Shown here: one piece after another, positions 1,828-10,607 of the stretch
Numbering within the stretch: the first letter of the stretch is position 1
Layout: each line of letters starts with the position of its first letter
Assembly: GCF_053078305.1 (NCBI RefSeq)
Contig: NZ_CP166879.1
Reading direction: 5' to 3' (one strand)
Length of the DNA stretch: 64,000 nucleotides
Made by a program: the position numbers and the translations under genes
The notes under the pieces: generated by a model
Told to the model about the DNA's origin: nothing
Seen by the model: only the letters and a program-made list of their open reading frames with translations
The model's database searches: none

Positions 1828-1985
1828 TGAAAAAGATACCCTTGTTGTTTGATCGTCGATAACGGGTATCAATGTGCACATGCAAATCGATGGCGTTTAT
1901 GTGTGCGCTGTCGAACGTTTGAAAATGGTTTTAGGGCGGTTTTAATGCTGGTTGATGTGGCGCTCTGTGGCGCTCGTTTTGGTGT

Positions 1986-2066
1986 GCTGGTGGCGGGGGT
2001 CGAACCCGCATACATGATCAGCCTGTACAGGCTGGCACCGACTCTACCCGTTGAGCGTACACCAGC
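1986..2066 (-). other. tRNA-like remnant (7-bp acceptor stem GCTGGTG/CACCAGC, canonical T-arm GCGGG-TTCGACC-CCCGC, aberrant anticodon arm, no CCA)
   Basis: Hand-folded from sequence; anticodon region replaced by perfect palindrome CAGCCTGTACAGGCTG. Confidence 0.45.
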
Positions 2067-2090
2067 AAAAAAGCGATGAGGTTGTTGGCT

Positions 2091-2178
2091 GCTGGTGGTG
2101 GGGGTCGAACCCACATAAACATCCCGCTTTCTGGAAGCTATACAAGCGGACGCCGCTTTACCGATTAAGAGTACACCA
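2091..2178 (-). other. Second tRNA-like remnant (T-arm GTGGG-TTCGACC-CCCAC plus CACCAGC 3' acceptor strand; 5' acceptor strand incomplete)
   Basis: Read from sequence; paralogous to 1986-2066 element. Confidence 0.35.
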
Positions 2179-2261
2179 TACAGCCAGGTAAAATAGTAAT
2201 CATGCGTTATGTGCGGGTAAAGTCTGTTTCGTCTGGTAGCACCAGATGAACGGGTATCATT

Positions 2262-2330
2262 ATTTCACCTGATTTCACGTGATTTCGCTTAATTTCACAA
2301 AAATCACCTTCTTTCACCTTCTTTCACAAA
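2262..2330. repeat. Array of six TTTCAC(C) direct repeats (iteron-like, crr-like)
   Basis: TTTCAC at 2264, 2274, 2294, 2313, 2323 plus degenerate copies; resembles P4 type I iteron TGTTCACC. Confidence 0.5.
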
Positions 2331-2461
2331 AAACAAATCATCATTAAAGCGCCTGATTCGCTCTCTGATGCGTTTTGGTGTTTTTGTGGCGTCCGTGATG
2401 CCCTGAAAGGGGATTTTTGCGATAGCGGCGCAAATATAACGGTTGCTGCTGGTATCTGTGG

Positions 2462-2982: not shown

Positions 2983-3255
2983 TTACTTCTGGTAGCTACG
3001 CCAGATTTTTTTACATCTCCCTCCTATCCCCATTTCTGCGTAAGTGCGGTTTACTGCTTTCCTCAGGTCTGCGTAGTTCTCCTCTGGCGGCTCCGGTGGC
3101 CTCTGTGCCTTCCCGTAACATTCTGCCCTGCGCATTGCCACCCGTTCGCGTTCCCTGTCAGTCTCCACCAGCATCATCACTTCAGCCCATCGCGCCGCCG
3201 CTCTCCGGTAAAAGCCCTTCGCCTCCAGCTCTTCCGCTATGCTGTCATGTACCAT
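2983..3255 (-). CDS. PerC-family transcriptional regulator-like protein
   Basis: 90-aa ORF with AEELEAKGFYRRAAARWAEVM motif typical of PerC/Pch proteins of prophage-like elements. Confidence 0.6.
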   Translation of the reverse strand: MVHDSIAEELEAKGFYRRAAARWAEVMMLVETDRERERVAMRRAECYGKAQRPPEPPEENYADLRKAVNRTYAEMGIGGRCKKIWRSYQK

Positions 3256-3777: not shown

Positions 3778-3915
3778 GAATGCACTTATCAGCCAGGGGG
3801 CTTTCGCGTGTCTTTCTGCCGTGTTGTGGCCCTTCGTTCATGAGCAAAACACTTAAATAAAACTAAAGTGATTTTCTGTGTTTTCGTGCTGCTCTGCTCT
3901 GTGTTTTTTTGCCGT

Positions 3916-4130
3916 TTACTCACCACTACTCACTTTTTTTACTCACTTTTTGGAATCGCTCACTTCGTCTCACCTGAGATTTTTGGTGTTTTTATGTGTG
4001 TGTTTTATAAGTGGTTTTTTACTACTCACTTTTTTGCCTATATACAGGTGAGAAAGTGAGTAATTTTGTTAATTTTTTGTAAAATTACTCACTTTACTCA
4101 CTTTTGCTCCTCACTTTTTTACAGCGGTAC
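3916..4130. repeat. Iteron array: at least 8 copies of ACTCACTTT (one inverted), AT-rich; candidate replication origin
   Basis: Repeats read directly (e.g. TACTCACCACTACTCACTTTTTTTACTCACTTTTT; AAAGTGAGTA inverted copy); immediately 3' of replication helicase gene. Confidence 0.6.
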
Positions 4131-5516
4131 TACGTCATCGCCGTCAATGCGTATAGTCTCGTCTTTCTCCAGTTTTGCTAACCATCGCCGCATGTTTTTC
4201 ACGTCATACCCAAGCCGTTTCATGTCGTCGCGCAACAACGAAATAGTGCACTTGTCGCCGTGCTGTGTGCGTGACCGGATGCAGCCCCATAGCGCGGTAT
4301 GGTTTTCCGTCTTGTTGCCAGCCTCCTCGATGCGCTCCACTTCAACGGGATGACGCGGCTTATCCACCACAACCAGAGACGTGATTAACTCCCCGTCAGC
4401 GTCGGTAAAAAGCTCAACTACCCGCAAATCGTAGGCAGCTTCTTTGAGTTCCTCTGCGTCCTTCATTTTGGTACATGAGATAACCAGCGCTTCGCTTCCT
4501 GCGTCCTCCCTGCGTATCCGGTATTCAGCATCCAGTGATGCACGAAATGCACTGGAACCACGCGCCCCCTTTGTTTCATCCTTGCCGGAATGGTGAACCA
4601 CCAGCACCGTTGCCCCTGTGCGCCGTTTCAGTTCGTCACACCCACGGATAAACGCCCCCATATCACGGGAATCATTTTCATCATTGCCACCAAAGCAACG
4701 CGCCAGCGTATCCAGAATAATCATGCGTACAGGTTTACCCGTTTCCCGTTCCACCTGGCGGGCAGCGATAACCATTTCATCAACATCAAGCGGGGCAGCC
4801 GGAAAGATGGGGCGGTTTACCAGATACAGATTTTTCACCTGCTCACCGTGCACAACCTCCCAGGCTTTTACACGACGCGGAACGCCGATACCGCCTTCAC
4901 CAACCACATAGAGAACAGCGCCATGCGCCACCCTGCGGCCTCCCCACTGGCGGCCCGTGGAAACGTGACACGCCCACGAACCCGCAAGGAACGATTTATA
5001 GGAACCGCTCGCCCCGTATATGCTGCACAGCGATACCGCCGGAATAATCCCCTTAACCACGTAATCCAGTTGCGTGTCATATCCGGCAGAACCAACGCTC
5101 ATCGGTAGCTTTGTTTTGCGCTGGTGGCCTTTTTCTTCCTGCTTTTCCCCGCGCTCCCGTTCCAGATATTCGCGCCAGTTCTCCCGCTTCTGGCTGTGCA
5201 TCCCATCGGGGTAGTAATTCGCATCCTGTACGCCTGCCGCTGCCAGTTTTTGCGCGATGGCATTAATATTTGATGGTCTGATATGGCTTGCTTTGTACAG
5301 CCGGACGCAATAGCGCCCCTCGTCAATGATTTTCGTGTCTGCCAGTTCTGCCAGTTGCTGCTCCCCAAGCCATACAGGTGGCACATTATCGCCAGCAAGT
5401 CGGCCCTCCTGCTCCTGCCACTGCTTCGCGTGTGCCCAGGCATCACTACCCACAAAAATAATGACCTCGGTCATTTTGTCGTAAGGCTGTTTTTTTAAGT
5501 TCGGTGCGCTTTTCAT
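4119..5516 (-). CDS. Replication initiator/helicase (RecA-fold, AAA_25/RepA-like; P4 alpha-like role)
   Basis: 465-aa ORF; Walker A GASGSYKS, Walker B MIILDTLARCF...; C-terminal putative DNA-binding region; adjacent iterons. Confidence 0.8.
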   Translation of the reverse strand: MKSAPNLKKQPYDKMTEVIIFVGSDAWAHAKQWQEQEGRLAGDNVPPVWLGEQQLAELADTKIIDEGRYCVRLYKASHIRPSNINAIAQKLAAAGVQDANYYPDGMHSQKRENWREYLERERGEKQEEKGHQRKTKLPMSVGSAGYDTQLDYVVKGIIPAVSLCSIYGASGSYKSFLAGSWACHVSTGRQWGGRRVAHGAVLYVVGEGGIGVPRRVKAWEVVHGEQVKNLYLVNRPIFPAAPLDVDEMVIAARQVERETGKPVRMIILDTLARCFGGNDENDSRDMGAFIRGCDELKRRTGATVLVVHHSGKDETKGARGSSAFRASLDAEYRIRREDAGSEALVISCTKMKDAEELKEAAYDLRVVELFTDADGELITSLVVVDKPRHPVEVERIEEAGNKTENHTALWGCIRSRTQHGDKCTISLLRDDMKRLGYDVKNMRRWLAKLEKDETIRIDGDDVVPL

Positions 5517-5885: not shown

Positions 5886-6200
5886 TCACGAATGGCGATA
5901 ATCAGCACTGATATCTCCGTTACGACAACGCCAGTTGTACACCTCCACAACCTCACTGAATCCGGCCACAAGTTCAGCCGTAACAGCGATGGAATCGCCC
6001 AGGCTGCGCAGTTCGTCCATGTCAGGATCAATGCTGTCACTCATGCCAGAAAGTAAGCGCCCTGTGATAGCCAGCCCTTCAAGCAGTTTGCGGGCGTAGA
6101 AATCAGCATCATCAAACATCGCTCTCGCTTCCCGTGCGTCAGCTGCTTTTATGGTTGTAACCAGTTGTTCAAGTATTCTGGTGTTACACACATCACGCAT
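5886..6200 (-). CDS. Hypothetical protein
   Basis: 104-aa ORF in co-oriented gene train; no recognisable motifs. Confidence 0.45.
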   Translation of the reverse strand: MRDVCNTRILEQLVTTIKAADAREARAMFDDADFYARKLLEGLAITGRLLSGMSDSIDPDMDELRSLGDSIAVTAELVAGFSEVVEVYNWRCRNGDISADYRHS

Positions 6201-6363
6201 GACTCACCCCCTCACGAATAAGGGTGACAAAAATCAGATGGGTGTGCGGAAGTTGTGCGCGTGCTTCGTGCTCAGTGGCAGCGGTAACGGTGAATATTGC
6301 AATGCTGCCTGTCAGGCACTGCATAAAGCGCCAGACAAAGTAAGGGCGTGCGGATACAGCCAT
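6193..6363 (-). CDS. Icd-like small protein, copy C (56 aa; MAVSARPYFVWRFMQC...)
   Basis: Internal Met of ORF 6193..6687 preceded by strong SD (AGGAG, ~8-nt spacer); conserved C-terminal block shared by three tandem copies. Confidence 0.5.
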   Translation of the reverse strand: MAVSARPYFVWRFMQCLTGSIAIFTVTAATEHEARAQLPHTHLIFVTLIREGVSHA

Positions 6364-6649
6364 GTGAAAGGCTCCTATGTTTGAGGTAAGGAGTCTCGCT
6401 ACTACGCTGCTAAACATGGTGGCGAGACGTAACAGGGTTAGCAGACTGGCAACATAGAAACCAGCGAGCGCAAAGGCTCCCCCGTTACGCCCCGCCATAA
6501 TGCGGGTATGGGTAGGTTTACGGACACAAAAAAACCGCATATCGGAATGTAAGCGGCTGTCCGCTATGTTATTCAGGCTGCTAAACCCGGTCGCCATGTG
6601 GGTGACTCCGGCATCATACAGCCCGAAAGAAGAGGCGATCAACATGTTT

Positions 6650-6820
6650 TTATCCATGTGATGCCTCCTGACGGATACGGGCGACAAAAATCAGATGTGC
6701 GTGCGGCAGCCGGGCGCGTGCTTCGTGCTCAGTGGCAGCGGTAACGGTGAATACATCGATGTTACTGTGGTGGCACTGCATAAAGCGCCAGACAAAGTAA
6801 GGGCGTGCGAATACAGCCAT
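6650..6820 (-). CDS. Icd-like small protein, copy B (56 aa; MAVFARPYFVWRFMQC...)
   Basis: As copy C; SD AGGAG upstream of internal ATG at 6820. Confidence 0.5.
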   Translation of the reverse strand: MAVFARPYFVWRFMQCHHSNIDVFTVTAATEHEARARLPHAHLIFVARIRQEASHG

Positions 6821-7106
6821 GTGAAAGGCTCCTGTAGTGAAATTAAGGAGTCTCGCTACTACGCTGTCAAACATGGTGGCGAGACGTAACAGGGTTGACA
6901 GACTGGCACTACAGGAACCAGCGAGCGCAAAGGCTCCCCCGTTACGCCCCGCCATAATGCGGGTATGGGTAGGCTTACGGACACAAAAAAACCGCATATC
7001 GGAATGTAAGCGGCTGTCCGCTGTAGTATTCAGGCTGTCAAACCCGGTCGCCATGTGGACGACTCCGGCATCATACAGCCCGAAAGAAGAGGCGATCAAC
7101 ATGTTT

Positions 7107-7295
7107 TTAAGCATGACTCACCCCCTGACGAATACGGGCGGCGAATACAGCGACACAACCGGACGGGCAACGGTTACGCGCTTCGCGTTCCGTCCAGGCG
7201 GTTACGTGGATGATTTGACGTTCTGACGTGCCAAAGGTGATAAAGCGCCAGATAAAGGCGGTTTGAGAATGTACGAGGGCAGGGGTAGTAGCCAT
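7107..7295 (-). CDS. Icd-like small protein, diverged copy A (62 aa; MATTPALVHSQTAFIWRF...)
   Basis: SD AGGAGG upstream of ATG at 7295; C-terminus ...TEREARNRCPSG...ARIRQGVSHA homologous to copies B/C. Confidence 0.45.
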   Translation of the reverse strand: MATTPALVHSQTAFIWRFITFGTSERQIIHVTAWTEREARNRCPSGCVAVFAARIRQGVSHA

Positions 7296-7825
7296 GATGG
7301 CAGCCTCCTTTATCGTTGGGATATACCCACCGCTGGAGGTTCCAATCTCGCTGGCGGTGGACTGCACGGAGTTGGAACTACTGGCGATAAAGGAAACCAG
7401 CCTGACCGAAGTCAGCCCCATACAGCCCACCATTGATAAGGTGTGCGTGTGCGCCGATACAAAAAAAGACGCGTTCGGCGTCTGTATCGCCTTTATCTCC
7501 AGCGGGGTTCCAATCCCGACACCCGTTTTATGAGGTGCGCGGGAATCATAGCCATTTTTGATACTGGCGATCAACTGATTTTCTCTGGCGGGTATTTGGC
7601 GCGGATGCCTGTTACCTGTGGCAATATACACACGACTGTATACAATACACATCGGTTAACTCCTTATATTCCGTTGATGGCCCGTAGTGTTATTGCATTG
7701 CGGGTATTTTTTACCTGCCGTTAATTGAATGCGGCAAGGCATCACGACGGTTAACCCGTTTTGCATAACGTGAGGCGTTTTATTTTCTGCGCTGGTGGCT
7801 TTTATATTTCACATATGGGAATTTA

Positions 7826-8029
7826 TTATTCCTGCTGATAACGCTCCTCTACTTTCTTCTCAAGCCATGATTTCACCTCATCCTCAAACCAGCCAACGCG
7901 GCGTAATCCACGCTTAAAACCAGGAATAAATTCACCAGCCTTAACCATTGTGTCAATGCTCGTTGTACTAAGGCGAAGAAGATTTGCGACTTCTCGTTTT
8001 GTAAGGATTTTCTTTTCTGTAATGTTCAT
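7826..8029 (-). CDS. alpA: AlpA-family phage transcriptional regulator (HTH)
   Basis: 67-aa ORF, LTKREVANLLRLSTTSIDTMVKAGEFIP HTH typical of AlpA/prophage CP4-57 regulator family. Confidence 0.8.
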   Translation of the reverse strand: MNITEKKILTKREVANLLRLSTTSIDTMVKAGEFIPGFKRGLRRVGWFEDEVKSWLEKKVEERYQQE

Positions 8030-8166: not shown

Positions 8167-9063
8167 TCAGTCGTCAACGTCTGCAAGCCACTTACCTATG
8201 CATGTTGGTGTGGCACCGATATCAACGCCTGCTTTGGTTAGTGCGCGGCTTAACTTGCTGTGACCGTTTTCAAGCGCCCTTCGTGGGTTTGACGCCTCTT
8301 CTTCTCCGGCTATAGCGGTGATTAGTCTTTTGATAACTCTGGCCTGAAGATTGGTTGTTTTCTTTGATGGGGGTGGTTTATTGATGTTTAATTCATCCAT
8401 GTTTTCAATAGAAGCGGTACGCCCTCCGTTTATGGCTAAATCTATCTCACTTCTGGAAATAAAAATATCGTTACGTGATATATCCCATCCCTGTAATAAA
8501 ATCGCAGCTTTAAAATCATCCTCGTCATCGTTATCGATTATCTGAATGTATTTAGTATTTGTTGTATCGTGAAATGATAATCTTTCAATGTCTGCGCTGT
8601 TAGCCTTTACATTAAGCAATCCATCAGCTTTAACATATATTTCTTTTGCGGGTGTTATTATTTGTGCGTTTTTTATCTCTGGCTCATCTTCAGCAAAAAT
8701 ATTCATGCTGAAATAATCACCATATGATGAGTAATGATAGTTTATGTTGAGTCCTGCATGTGCATAATAAAAAACATCTATTGGAGTGAGTAGCTTATTT
8801 ATAGATGTGGCATCAATGATTACATTGCAATATTCATTTGTGTAATGCTGGTATAATGTTTTATTAGCACTGATAAGCTCAGGCTTTACCCCTTCATAAT
8901 ACTTTAATGTCAGTTTTTCATTTATATTAATGCGATACAAAAAACGCATCCTCCTCGTAGCGATGAAATGAAGCAAATCATCAACGTCACACTCAAGCCT
9001 TCTGGCTGCCTTGTCTAACGGGTAATAATCCCTTTCAGGAAGGTTTATTTTTTTGTTTGCCAT
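8167..9063 (-). CDS. Hypothetical protein, low-GC cargo (possible N-terminal excisionase-like HTH); function unknown
   Basis: 298-aa ORF 4 bp downstream of integrase stop; markedly AT-rich (about one third GC by eye) versus flanking genes; N/I/D-rich; followed by terminator. Confidence 0.6.
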   Translation of the reverse strand: MANKKINLPERDYYPLDKAARRLECDVDDLLHFIATRRMRFLYRININEKLTLKYYEGVKPELISANKTLYQHYTNEYCNVIIDATSINKLLTPIDVFYYAHAGLNINYHYSSYGDYFSMNIFAEDEPEIKNAQIITPAKEIYVKADGLLNVKANSADIERLSFHDTTNTKYIQIIDNDDEDDFKAAILLQGWDISRNDIFISRSEIDLAINGGRTASIENMDELNINKPPPSKKTTNLQARVIKRLITAIAGEEEASNPRRALENGHSKLSRALTKAGVDIGATPTCIGKWLADVDD

Positions 9064-9067
9064 GCCC

Positions 9068-10348
9068 TTAACCGTTAACCATTTTTAACCCACGATAGCC
9101 ACCCGTGGCGCTTACGCTCCCGCTGGCAGCTGCCTCTACAAAATCCCCCCACCACGCCATTAACGGGCGTCGCTGCTCGAGATAGGTTGAGCGGTTGTAC
9201 GCACGGCGAACCTCGTTTTTATCTATGTGTGACAATGCCGCCTCGATTACGTCAGAGTCAAAACCTTGCTCGTTAAGTGCGGTACTTGCTATTGAGCGCA
9301 AGCCATGAGCAACCAGCCGCCCACTAAAACCCATGCGTTTTATTGCTGCGTTTGCTGTTTGTACGCACATATGGCGCTGCGGGTCGCTGTTGTGTGGAAA
9401 TATAAACTCACGATGCCCGCTTATTGGCTTCATGACGTCCAGAATGGCTAACGCCTGCTTCGAGAGTGGTATTACGTGTTCCCTGCGTTGTTTAAGTCTG
9501 TGCTCTGGTATGCGCCATTCCTTCACCTCAAAATCAATTTCACACCAGCGCGCGCCAGCTGCTTCACCTGGTCGGCAAATTGTCAGTAGCTGCCACTCAA
9601 TGACCAGCCGCGTTTGTCGTTCCACCCGTGCCGTTGCCAGCTTCTGCATAAATTCGGGGAGTTCTTCAGGGCGTATTGCTGGCATGTTCTTAACGCTTGG
9701 CGCGTTAAATGCCTTGCTTATCTCTGATGCCGGATTCGCGGCAATCATTCCGGTATTAACGGCGTAATACATGACCTCATTGATTCGCTGTGCTGTCCTT
9801 CTGACGGTATCTAATTTCCCCTGGGCGGCTAATGGTTTTAATGCTTCGATGAAATTGCTTGCTATCAGGTCTGCTATTGGCCTGTTACCGACTGACGGGA
9901 ATACATTACGCTCCAGCGAACGCCATATATCGCGTAGTGTATCTTCTGCGAGTCCTTGCCCTTTTTTAAGTTCAAACCAGAGCGTAGCTACATGCCTGAA
10001 GGTGTTCTCTCTCTTCATCACTTCACTAAGGCGCTGTTTCTCTCTGTGCTCTTTTGGGTCAATGCCACCAGAAAGAAGCGCTCTGTATTCGTCTTTTATC
10101 TTTCGCGCGCCCGCAATGCTGATTTCTGGATATGCGCCAATGCTTAACATGGCCCGTTTTTTTGTGTGTGGCTTGTAGTAGCGGTAACGCCACAAGCAAG
10201 AGGCGCTTTTGTGCTTAATCACCAGTTCCAGCCCTTCGCCGTCAGTGATGAAAAGGTCCTTTTTTTCGTTGCTGGCTTTTCGCTGGAGGCTTTTTATCGT
10301 TGCGGGTGATAAAGACTTAACTTTTTTGGTCACCGGTTCAACTCCCAT
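9068..10348 (-). CDS. int: Tyrosine site-specific integrase, P4-type
   Basis: 426-aa ORF; catalytic tail ...AHGLRSIASTAL...RAYNRSTY; adjacent to tRNA and att repeat. Confidence 0.9.
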   Translation of the reverse strand: MGVEPVTKKVKSLSPATIKSLQRKASNEKKDLFITDGEGLELVIKHKSASCLWRYRYYKPHTKKRAMLSIGAYPEISIAGARKIKDEYRALLSGGIDPKEHREKQRLSEVMKRENTFRHVATLWFELKKGQGLAEDTLRDIWRSLERNVFPSVGNRPIADLIASNFIEALKPLAAQGKLDTVRRTAQRINEVMYYAVNTGMIAANPASEISKAFNAPSVKNMPAIRPEELPEFMQKLATARVERQTRLVIEWQLLTICRPGEAAGARWCEIDFEVKEWRIPEHRLKQRREHVIPLSKQALAILDVMKPISGHREFIFPHNSDPQRHMCVQTANAAIKRMGFSGRLVAHGLRSIASTALNEQGFDSDVIEAALSHIDKNEVRRAYNRSTYLEQRRPLMAWWGDFVEAAASGSVSATGGYRGLKMVNG

Positions 10349-10531: not shown

Positions 10532-10607
10532 TGGTGGCCCCTGCTGGACTTGAACCAGCGACCAAGCGATTATGAGTCGCCTGCTCTAACCACTGAGCTA
10601 AGGGGCC
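10532..10607 (-). tRNA. ileX: tRNA-Ile2 (anticodon CAU, lysidine-modified), 76 nt with encoded CCA
   Basis: Reverse complement reads GGCCCCTTAGCTCAGTGGTTAGAGCAGGCGACTCATAATCGCTTGGTCGCTGGTTCAAGTCCAGCAGGGGCCACCA; cloverleaf and CAT anticodon. Confidence 0.9.

What the first reader, a model, noticed from the sequence alone, without database searches (positions are those of the whole stretch)
4119..5516. Replication protein combines a RecA-fold AAA_25-type ATPase with unassigned N- and C-terminal domains
Seen: Walker A GASGSYKS and Walker B MIILDTLARCFGG in the central region; about 150 N-terminal residues and about 100 C-terminal residues have no motif I can place (no obvious Toprim or zinc ribbon). 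Inference: a RepA-like helicase/initiator distinct from the canonical P4 alpha primase-helicase; primase activity, if any, would reside in a non-canonical N-domain.
Basis: partly seen in the sequence, partly recalled or inferred. Interest (0 to 1): 0.35.

Follow-up and report, generated by a model that had tools for sequence, protein, structure and literature searches.

The report
Phage-satellite replication helicase with dead primase-like domain
This gene encodes the replication initiator-helicase of a small phage-satellite island in an E. coli-type chromosome; it belongs to a common, already annotated family, and its two unassigned ends are most likely an inactive primase-like module and a DNA-binding domain that reads the adjacent replication origin.

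Summary
The ORF at 4119-5516 (-) encodes 465 aa with Walker A GASGSYKS, Walker B MIILDTLARCFGG and one Pfam hit, AAA_25 (residues 147-314). The ends have no Pfam match.

It is the replication protein ("Pri-Rep") of a Gram-negative PICI-type phage satellite at tRNA-ileX, with the order int, alpA, C4/isrK RNAs, Icd-like, DUF4222, rep, ori, ssb, perC, mor.

The C-terminus is predicted to be a winged helix. Just downstream lie 11 RGTGAG iterons around an AT-rich core. Across 84 related loci, residue 441 (N/H/G) tracks the iteron base (GTGAG/GTGGG/GTGCG) without exception.

RefSeq annotates the family in 1035 of 5426 complete E. coli genomes. This is a known kind of element and of low interest.

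The parts
4119..5516 (-). rep gene, 465 aa: the satellite's replication initiator-helicase (the 'Pri-Rep' slot of a Gram-negative PICI)
   Evidence: ORF; Pfam AAA_25; RefSeq name 'helicase RepA family protein'; AlphaFold pLDDT 92.8
5139..5516 (-). N-terminal module, residues 1-126: alpha/beta domain with a TOPRIM-like fold that lacks the catalytic Glu, the DxD motif and a zinc ribbon; it is swapped among three helicase classes
5067..5138 (-). Linker, residues 127-150 (low-confidence region; the motif LP.S.GS.GYD is conserved in AAA_25 relatives)
   Evidence: pLDDT 61-73 for residues 121-140; homologue alignments begin here
4362..5066 (-). RecA-fold SF4 helicase core, residues 151-385
4992..5015 (-). 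Walker A, GASGSYKS (K174)
   Evidence: K174 is invariant in 144/144 homologues
4686..4724 (-). Walker B, MIILDTLARCFGG (D269)
   Evidence: D269 and T270 are invariant in 144/144 homologues
4545..4601 (-). Helicase motifs H3/H4, VVHHSGKDETKGARGSSAF (H308, H309, arginine R319)
   Evidence: H308 and H309 in 144/144, R319 in 143/144, G320 in 144/144 homologues
4122..4322 (-). C-terminal winged-helix domain, residues 399-465 (helices 404-418, 425-434, 442-451; beta hairpin 455-464): the origin-binding domain
   Evidence: DSSP on the AlphaFold model; weak profile match to the MCM winged helix 2m45, E 0.06; covariation with iterons
4194..4196 (-). Codon of N441, the N-cap of the recognition helix: candidate specificity residue for the fourth base of the GTGNG iteron
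   Evidence: K-N-[M/F] goes with GTGAG in 44 loci, K-H-[F/L] with GTGGG in 39 loci, K-G-F with GTGCG in 1 locus, with no exceptions; numbering
3915..4118 (-). Replication origin: 11 RGTGAG iterons in two sets (4088-4115 with the inverted pair 4047-4060, and 3919-3974, plus one at 4025-4030) around an AT-rich core (27% GC at 4000-4099)
   Evidence: Sequence; composition. All 6 exact AAGTGAGYA matches in the window fall here. 11 of the 63 RGTGAG in the 64-kb window lie within 197 bp. Relatives have the same layout. It matches the published GN-PICI ori layout (PMC6092414).
5513..5812 (-). DUF4222 gene, 99 aa, translationally coupled (ATGA overlap) to rep; a recurrent but not universal upstream partner
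   Evidence: Pfam DUF4222 E 1.8e-23; overlap; the same pairing; absent in L004, L001, L002 and L005
3266..3676 (-). Satellite SSB, 136 aa, ending in ...DNIPF; it belongs to the replication zone downstream of the ori
   Evidence: Pfam SSB E 1.7e-15; the same position in EcCICFT073 and in L008

Best explanation
The gene encodes the single-polypeptide replication initiator and replicative helicase of a Gram-negative PICI-type phage satellite integrated at tRNA-ileX. My reading of how it works has four parts.

(1) The C-terminal winged helix binds the RGTGAG iterons that begin right after the stop codon. Residue N441, at the start of the recognition helix, helps to read the variable iteron base.

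(2) The central RepA-like SF4 RecA core then assembles, presumably as a hexamer, at the AT-rich region between the iteron sets and unwinds the DNA using ATP.

(3) The N-terminal 126 residues are a self-contained module with a TOPRIM-like fold that has lost the primase active site. It most likely serves as an adaptor or structural collar, not as an enzyme. Priming would then be done by the host primase DnaG, possibly helped by the satellite's own SSB.

(4) Expression follows AlpA-dependent induction of the island by a helper phage.

Shown here: the fold assignments, the intact ATPase motifs, the position and architecture of the ori, the covariation between protein residue and iteron, and the modularity of the N-domain. 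Inferred: the hexameric state, the polarity of unwinding, the adaptor role of the N-domain, and the use of host DnaG.
For: Context. The island has the published GN-PICI order: tRNA, int, cargo, alpA, isrK/C4 RNAs, Icd-like, DUF4222, rep, ori, ssb, perC, mor. This compares with PMC10111431 and PMC6092414, and with EcCICFT073 itself.

Initiator. The model shows a winged-helix topology at residues 404-464, with a weak MCM winged-helix profile hit. There are 11 RGTGAG iterons in 197 bp directly 3' of the stop, against 0.19 expected from the window-wide density. The ori layout is the same in relatives but with a changed iteron core. The association between residue 441 and the iteron base is perfect in 84 loci, including helix motifs (YEMKNFRRWL and YEMKHFRRWL) that differ by that one residue.

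Confidence: 0.8

Rival explanations
1. The N-domain is an active primase of a non-canonical kind. The protein would then be a true primase-helicase, as the database name 'DNA primase' on many relatives implies.
For: The domain occupies the slot that Zn-ribbon plus Toprim_3 or AEP/PriCT_2 primase modules hold in close relatives of the ATPase-wHTH core. Its fold is nearest to DnaG, T7 and Twinkle primase domains. Three polar positions are conserved: E/D17, Q54 and E112. Many fragments are named 'DNA primase' by their sources.
Against: The invariant and near-invariant residues are almost all structural: G23, A26, P47, L55, I63, A4, P5, I20, A22, L50, G77, L91, A92. The positions I mapped to the TOPRIM Glu and DxD are Ala/Val and x-Leu-x. 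There is no zinc ribbon, and the N-terminal subdomain of the DnaG catalytic core is missing. No profile hit was found. The source names are inherited from the attached D5-type helicase families and were not tested. Core-only relatives manage without any N-module.
Confidence: 0.07
2. The N-domain, and not the C-terminal winged helix, is the origin-recognition domain.
For: It is a conserved, separately folding domain of unknown role. TOPRIM-like folds can bind nucleic acid.
Against: N-domain sequence type shows no association with iteron type: cluster 0 has 29 GTGAG and 25 GTGGG loci, cluster 1 has 11 and 12. A 67%-identical N-domain sits on EcCICFT073 Pri-Rep, whose iterons are unrelated. Residue 441 in the C-terminal helix tracks the iteron base perfectly.
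Confidence: 0.04
3. The protein is not a replication factor but a RecA-fold ATPase with another role (a RadA or KaiC-like recombination, defence or regulatory ATPase) carried as island cargo.
Against: The best structural and profile match is the replicative helicase RepA. The gene sits in the replication slot of a PICI with an iteron ori, and it covaries with that ori. There are no PADLOC hits. Relatives of the same core carry primase or DnaB-N domains.
Confidence: 0.03
4. The island is a decaying remnant, and rep and ori are present but no longer used.
For: The island has no capsid, terminase or recognisable packaging genes, unlike relatives L003, L008 and L009 and EcCICFT073. No att direct repeat was found. 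SatelliteFinder would class elements with only int, AlpA and primase as low-confidence 'Type C' (PMC10085698).
Against: The ORF is intact with every catalytic residue present. The iteron array is intact. The whole 9-kb island is 97-98% identical in 7 complete E. coli genomes. EcCIMP1, a PICI that also lacks identifiable capsid and terminase genes, is still induced and mobilised (PMC11773190).
Confidence: 0.1

Closest known systems
Pri-Rep of Gram-negative PICIs (EcCICFT073 C_RS06985, 'DNA primase family protein'; Fillol-Salom et al. 2018, PMC6092414)
   Same: It holds the same position in the same island plan: int, alpA, Icd-like, DUF4222, pri-rep, ori, ssb, perC. The N-terminal module is the same (67% identity over 125 aa, E 9e-54). 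The ori lies directly downstream, with two iteron sets around an AT-rich region.
   Different: The helicase engine is unrelated. EcCICFT073 uses D5_N, DUF5906 and Pox_D5 (SF3), whereas this protein uses AAA_25 (SF4, RepA-like). The iterons differ (TCTACC versus RGTGAG). This allele has not been tested experimentally.
RepA helicase of plasmid RSF1010 (PDB 1g8y)
   Different: RSF1010 RepA is a bare 279-aa helicase. It depends on a separate initiator (RepC) and a separate primase (RepB'); this is from established knowledge and was not tested here. The present protein adds an N-terminal TOPRIM-like module and a C-terminal winged helix that supplies origin recognition in the same chain.
Phage P4 alpha protein
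   Same: It has the same functional logic in a satellite of enterobacterial phages: one polypeptide with an N-terminal primase-slot domain, a central hexameric helicase and a C-terminal origin-binding winged helix acting on iterons (established knowledge of P4 alpha). Close relatives of the present core carry a Zn_Ribbon_Prim plus Toprim_3 primase with the EGYAT motif.
   Different: P4 alpha has an active zinc-ribbon/TOPRIM-type primase and an SF3 helicase. Here the primase slot holds a module without catalytic residues, and the helicase is SF4.
T7 gp4 / mitochondrial Twinkle primase-helicases
   Different: The present protein has no zinc-binding domain and no N-terminal subdomain of the primase core. 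It has an extra C-terminal winged helix and acts as its own initiator at an iteron origin. Its sequence similarity to TOPRIM is not significant.

Membership tests
AAA_25 / RSF1010 RepA-like SF4 helicases | Profile match above the curated threshold | tested here: met
   Pfam PF13481 scores 146.6 bits against a cut-off of 27. The PDB profile hit to RepA has E 3.9e-11.
AAA_25 / RSF1010 RepA-like SF4 helicases | Intact Walker A Lys, catalytic Glu, Walker B Asp, sensor His and arginine (motifs H1, H1a, H2, H3, H4) | tested here: met
   K174, E207, D269, H308, H309 and R319 are present and conserved in 143-144 of 144 homologues.
AAA_25 / RSF1010 RepA-like SF4 helicases | RecA-type fold closest to replicative hexameric helicases | tested here: met
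AAA_25 / RSF1010 RepA-like SF4 helicases | Hexameric ring and 5'-3' DNA unwinding | not testable with these tools
   Needs biochemistry or multimer modelling.
Gram-negative PICI replicon (Pri-Rep + ori) | Unidirectional island with int, alpA and a replication gene at a dedicated att site | tested here: met
   tRNA at 10532-10607, int at 9068-10348, alpA at 7826-8029 and rep at 4119-5516, all on the minus strand.
Gram-negative PICI replicon (Pri-Rep + ori) | Origin directly downstream of the replication gene: two iteron sets flanking an AT-rich region | tested here: met
   the published description is in PMC6092414.
Gram-negative PICI replicon (Pri-Rep + ori) | Homology to an experimentally validated Pri-Rep | tested here: inconclusive
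   Only the N-domain is homologous to EcCICFT073 Pri-Rep (67% identity). The helicase and the C-terminus are unrelated.
Gram-negative PICI replicon (Pri-Rep + ori) | Packaging or capsid-morphogenesis module (capsid, terS or similar) | tested here: not met
   Downstream of ssb there are only PerC, Mor and tRNA-like genes. Relatives do carry protease-capsid fusions.
Gram-negative PICI replicon (Pri-Rep + ori) | Helper-phage induction, autonomous replication and transfer | not testable with these tools
   Experimental.
TOPRIM (DnaG/T7-type) primase | Conserved catalytic Glu (motif 1) and DxD (motif 2) | tested here: not met
   In a manual alignment the corresponding positions are V22 (Ala in the consensus) and H78-I79-R80 (x-L-x in the consensus). 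There are no invariant acidic residues.
TOPRIM (DnaG/T7-type) primase | Zinc-ribbon template-recognition domain | tested here: not met
   The N-domain has a single Cys (C70) and no Zn_Ribbon_Prim hit, whereas relatives P0212, P0214 and P0216 have one.
TOPRIM (DnaG/T7-type) primase | Profile-level sequence similarity to a Toprim family | tested here: not met
   hhalign probability below 1%. hmmsearch scores are 5 bits or less. One of 28 members hits Toprim_3 at E 0.017.
TOPRIM (DnaG/T7-type) primase | TOPRIM fold | tested here: inconclusive
P4 alpha-type primase-helicase | SF3 (D5_N/DUF5906) helicase | tested here: not met
   No such Pfam hit; the engine is AAA_25.
Winged-helix origin-binding domain | Three-helix bundle followed by a beta-hairpin wing | tested here: met
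   AlphaFold/DSSP gives helices 404-418, 425-434 and 442-451 and strands 455-458 and 461-464, with pLDDT 88-97.
Winged-helix origin-binding domain | Sequence or fold match to known wHTH families | tested here: inconclusive
   Only weak profile hits: MCM winged helix 2m45 at E 0.06 and Nse1 at E 0.14. No fold search of the isolated domain was possible.
Winged-helix origin-binding domain | Specific recognition of the cognate iterons | tested here: met
   This is covariation, not binding. Residue 441 N/H/G goes with GTGAG/GTGGG/GTGCG in 84 of 84 loci.

The most novel reading that the evidence does not exclude
The 126-residue N-module could be a previously unrecognised, minimal primase (or another nucleotidyl-transfer enzyme) built on a TOPRIM-like scaffold, with a relocated active site that uses E/D17, Q54 and E112. 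PICI satellites would plug it onto three unrelated helicase engines (SF4 AAA_25, SF3 D5-like, DUF927). A milder version is more likely (about 0.4) but less striking: the module is a dead-primase adaptor that recruits host DnaG or another replisome factor, which would make the field's name 'Pri' a misnomer.
Probability: 0.06. Interest if true: 0.7.

Novelty: new member of a known kind. Interest (0 to 1): 0.22.

Why it matters
It matters little for discovery. The gene family is abundant: it is present in 1035 of 5426 complete E. coli genomes, is named by RefSeq, and fits the published replicon plan of Gram-negative phage-inducible chromosomal islands.

Three modest points may be useful.

(1) The 'primase' label on PICI Pri-Rep proteins appears unfounded for the shared N-module. 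This raises the question of who primes satellite replication.

(2) A single residue (N441 or H441) predicts whether the origin uses GTGAG or GTGGG iterons. This gives a simple handle on replicon specificity and incompatibility among co-resident satellites.

(3) The ATPase-wHTH core combines with at least five alternative N-terminal arrangements: the dead TOPRIM-like module, Zn-ribbon plus Toprim_3, PriCT_2, the DnaB N-domain, or none. This is a clear example of domain shuffling in the replication proteins of mobile elements.

Tried and rejected
Sequence-level tests of TOPRIM homology for the N-domain all failed. hhalign of the 28-sequence N-domain alignment against a 17-sequence Toprim_3 alignment taken from relatives of the same core was not significant in local or global mode. 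hmmsearch with that Toprim profile, with filters off, gave 5 bits or less. The PDB profile search gave nothing. A per-member Pfam scan gave one weak Toprim_3 hit in 28.

The Foldseek afdb50 library was unavailable. BFVD gave only one significant hit, to an uncharacterised 112-aa phage protein.

The N-domain searches in the 5.8-billion-protein set returned mostly short fragments and reached no taxa beyond Enterobacterales and Pasteurellaceae, apart from a single Xanthomonas-labelled fragment.

A first guess at the position of EcCICFT073 in the CFT073 genome landed on a lambdoid prophage; the second attempt found it.

A defence-system role was considered and dropped because there were no PADLOC hits.

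DUF4222 as an obligate partner of the N-domain was dropped, because it is missing upstream of the N-domain genes in L004, L001, L002 and L005.

A search for an att repeat of the tRNA 3' end found none, so the distal island boundary is not defined.

Full report
**Observation**

It encodes 465 aa. Walker A GASGSYKS is at residues 168-175 and Walker B MIILDTLARCFGG at residues 265-277. Pfam assigns only AAA_25 to residues 147-314 (E 9.2e-43). Nothing is assigned to the first ~145 or the last ~150 residues. NCBIfam gives only sub-threshold RadA hits. The start codon overlaps the stop of an upstream DUF4222 gene (ATGA), which indicates translational coupling.

**Context**

The window is E. coli-like chromosome; it carries yqjI, yqjH/nfeF, mug and rpoD. 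Between nfeF and a tRNA with anticodon CAT lies a ~8.5-kb island in which every gene is on the minus strand. ARAGORN calls this tRNA Met; a near-identical RefSeq island annotates it as tRNA-Ile. The gene order is:

- integrase, 9068-10348
- a 298-aa ORF with no family match
- an AlpA-type regulator, 7826-8029
- isrK and three C4 antisense RNAs, each followed by an Icd-like ORF
- a 104-aa ORF
- DUF4222
- the target gene
- an AT-rich repeat region
- an SSB
- a PerC-family protein
- a Mor-family protein

This is the four-zone plan published for Gram-negative phage-inducible chromosomal islands: an integration zone, a zone with C4/isrK immunity RNAs, a replication zone with primase, SSB and ori, and a late zone (PMC10111431; PMC6092414). 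The experimentally studied EcCICFT073 has the same order: int, HTH regulator, Icd-like, DUF4222, 'DNA primase family protein', SSB, PerC, capsid.

The whole island is 97-98% identical in 7 complete E. coli genomes, where the gene is named 'helicase RepA family protein'. Similar genes occur in 1035 of 5426 complete genomes.

**The core**

In 144 non-redundant homologues K174, E207, D269, E280, H308 and H309 are invariant, and R319 is present in 143. The ATPase is therefore intact and of the SF4 replicative-helicase type.

**The C-terminus and the origin**

The model ends in three helices (404-418, 425-434, 442-451) and a beta hairpin (455-464), which is a winged-helix topology. The only profile support is weak: MCM winged helix at E 0.06.

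Directly after the stop codon lie 11 copies of RGTGAG within 197 bp. There are three direct copies, an AT-rich stretch (27% GC), two inverted copies, one single copy and five more direct copies. All six exact AAGTGAGYA matches in the 64-kb window fall in this stretch. [quoted passage not shown]

Relatives keep the layout but change the iteron core. L008 uses GTGGG, L009 uses GTGCG, and the Toprim-bearing relative L007 uses GTGAG.

I then examined 84 loci: the window, three loci from assemblies and 80 from IMG/VR. The residue at the N-cap of the third helix predicts the iteron without exception. K-N-[M/F] goes with GTGAG (44 loci), K-H-[F/L] with GTGGG (39 loci) and K-G-F with GTGCG (1 locus). 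The set includes helix motifs (YEMKNFRRWL and YEMKHFRRWL) that differ only at that residue. In the target this residue is N441.

The loci are related to one another, so these are few independent events. The switch is nonetheless seen on at least two sequence backgrounds. I take this as good evidence that the winged helix is the origin-binding domain and that the protein is its own initiator.

**The N-domain**

Residues 1-126 fold confidently (pLDDT 93.3 when modelled alone) into a four-stranded alpha/beta domain. No profile library recognises it.

A manual alignment keeps the spacing of the TOPRIM elements:

- the TOPRIM motif-1 residues E-G correspond to V22-G23 (A-G in the N-domain consensus)
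- GNL corresponds to x-Q54-L55
- AGDxD corresponds to A76-S77(G)-x-L-x
- DW corresponds to N113-W114

It places non-acidic residues at every catalytic position. There is no zinc ribbon. The conserved residues are almost all structural.

My reading is that the fold is TOPRIM-like but not proven, and that the domain is very unlikely to be a primase.

**Modularity**

The ATPase-wHTH core recurs behind different N-terminal modules:

- Zn_Ribbon_Prim plus Toprim_3 (P0212, P0214, P0216, P0225)
- PriCT_2 (P0218, P0219)
- a DnaB N-terminal domain (P0215)
- nothing at all

Conversely, the target's N-module recurs in front of two unrelated helicase types. One is the SF3 type (D5_N, DUF5906, Pox_D5). The other is DUF927. 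These occur in PICIs and capsid-forming PICIs of Escherichia, Klebsiella, Salmonella, Arsenophonus and Pasteurella.

The tested EcCICFT073 Pri-Rep has the module at 67% identity, while the rest of that protein and its iterons (TCTACC) are unrelated.

Among the 78 loci analysable for this, N-domain type is independent of iteron type. One cluster has 29 GTGAG and 25 GTGGG loci, the other has 11 and 12. The N-module is therefore not the origin reader.

Three facts bear on its role. EcCICFT073 Pri-Rep plus its ori replicates a plasmid in E. coli without a helper phage. That protein also has no recognisable catalytic primase domain. Core-only relatives sit in islets with no primase gene nearby. The simplest inference is that host DnaG does the priming, and that the N-module is an accessory adaptor or collar. 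This last step is inference, not evidence.

**Comparison and verdict**

The protein works like P4 alpha: a primase slot, a helicase and a winged-helix origin binder in one chain of a phage satellite. It is not a member of that family, because its helicase is SF4 and its primase slot is catalytically empty.

It is a member of the AAA_25/RepA-like helicases, and it occupies the Pri-Rep slot of a GN-PICI-type island. That island lacks the packaging module, so it would count only as a low-confidence 'Type C' PICI.

The gene, the island type and the origin layout are all known and annotated. What this analysis adds is the domain dissection, the N441/H441 iteron rule and the doubt about the 'primase' name. 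I found no paper that covers these points, but they are incremental.

Interest is low (0.22), and the novelty rating is a new member of a known kind.

Noticed in passing
window 6193-7652 (-); C4 RNAs at 6415-6502, 6872-6959 and 7350-7437; isrK at 7462-7538: There are three tandem units of a C4 antisense (P4 CI-like immunity) RNA, each followed by an Icd-like ORF, preceded by one isrK element. The 98%-identical island in E. coli OkiPb01678 is annotated with only two Icd-like genes, so the unit number varies.
   Followed up: partly
window ~2290-2345 (-), downstream of the Mor-family gene 2462-2869: A cluster of about six GTGAAA/GGTGAAA repeats (gtgaaagaaggtgaaagaaggtga...gtgaaattaagcgaaatcacgtgaaatcaggtgaaata). 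It is a second repeat array in the island, possibly a regulator or packaging site.
   Followed up: no
window 1985-2066 (-) and ~2090-2185 (-): There are tRNA-like genes at the distal end of the island. Rfam scores one as tRNA at 35 bits, and ARAGORN did not call either. The RefSeq twin island annotates a tRNA-Tyr and a 'tRNA-OTHER' at the corresponding place.
   Followed up: partly
window 8167-9063 (-): A 298-aa ORF lies between the integrase and alpA in a low-GC stretch (44%). It has no Pfam or PADLOC match. This position is the usual accessory-cargo slot of satellites.
   Followed up: partly
window 10532-10607 versus the rest of the window: No second copy of the tRNA 3' end (AAGTCCAGCAGGGGCCACCA, up to 3 mismatches) was found, so the distal attachment-site repeat and the exact island boundary were not located.
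   Followed up: partly
L009 1-2451 (Enterobacter cloacae, GCA_000755525.1): A relative of the island sits immediately after prophage portal and ClpP-protease genes. This resembles the published helper-embedded PICI configuration.
   Followed up: no
proteins P0127, P0129, P0399: Some database proteins join the N-module directly to an SSB domain (233 aa). These are presumably deletion variants that have lost the helicase and the ori.
   Followed up: no
L094 2544-3578; L095 2173-3171: Minimal int-HTH-rep islets encode only the RepA-wHTH core (332-344 aa), with no N-terminal module and no primase gene within the short contigs.
   Followed up: partly
window 2983-3255 (-): The island carries a PerC-family regulator. 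In EcCIMP1 a PICI PerC homologue silences LEE expression (PMC11773190), so it is a possible virulence-regulation cargo.
   Followed up: no
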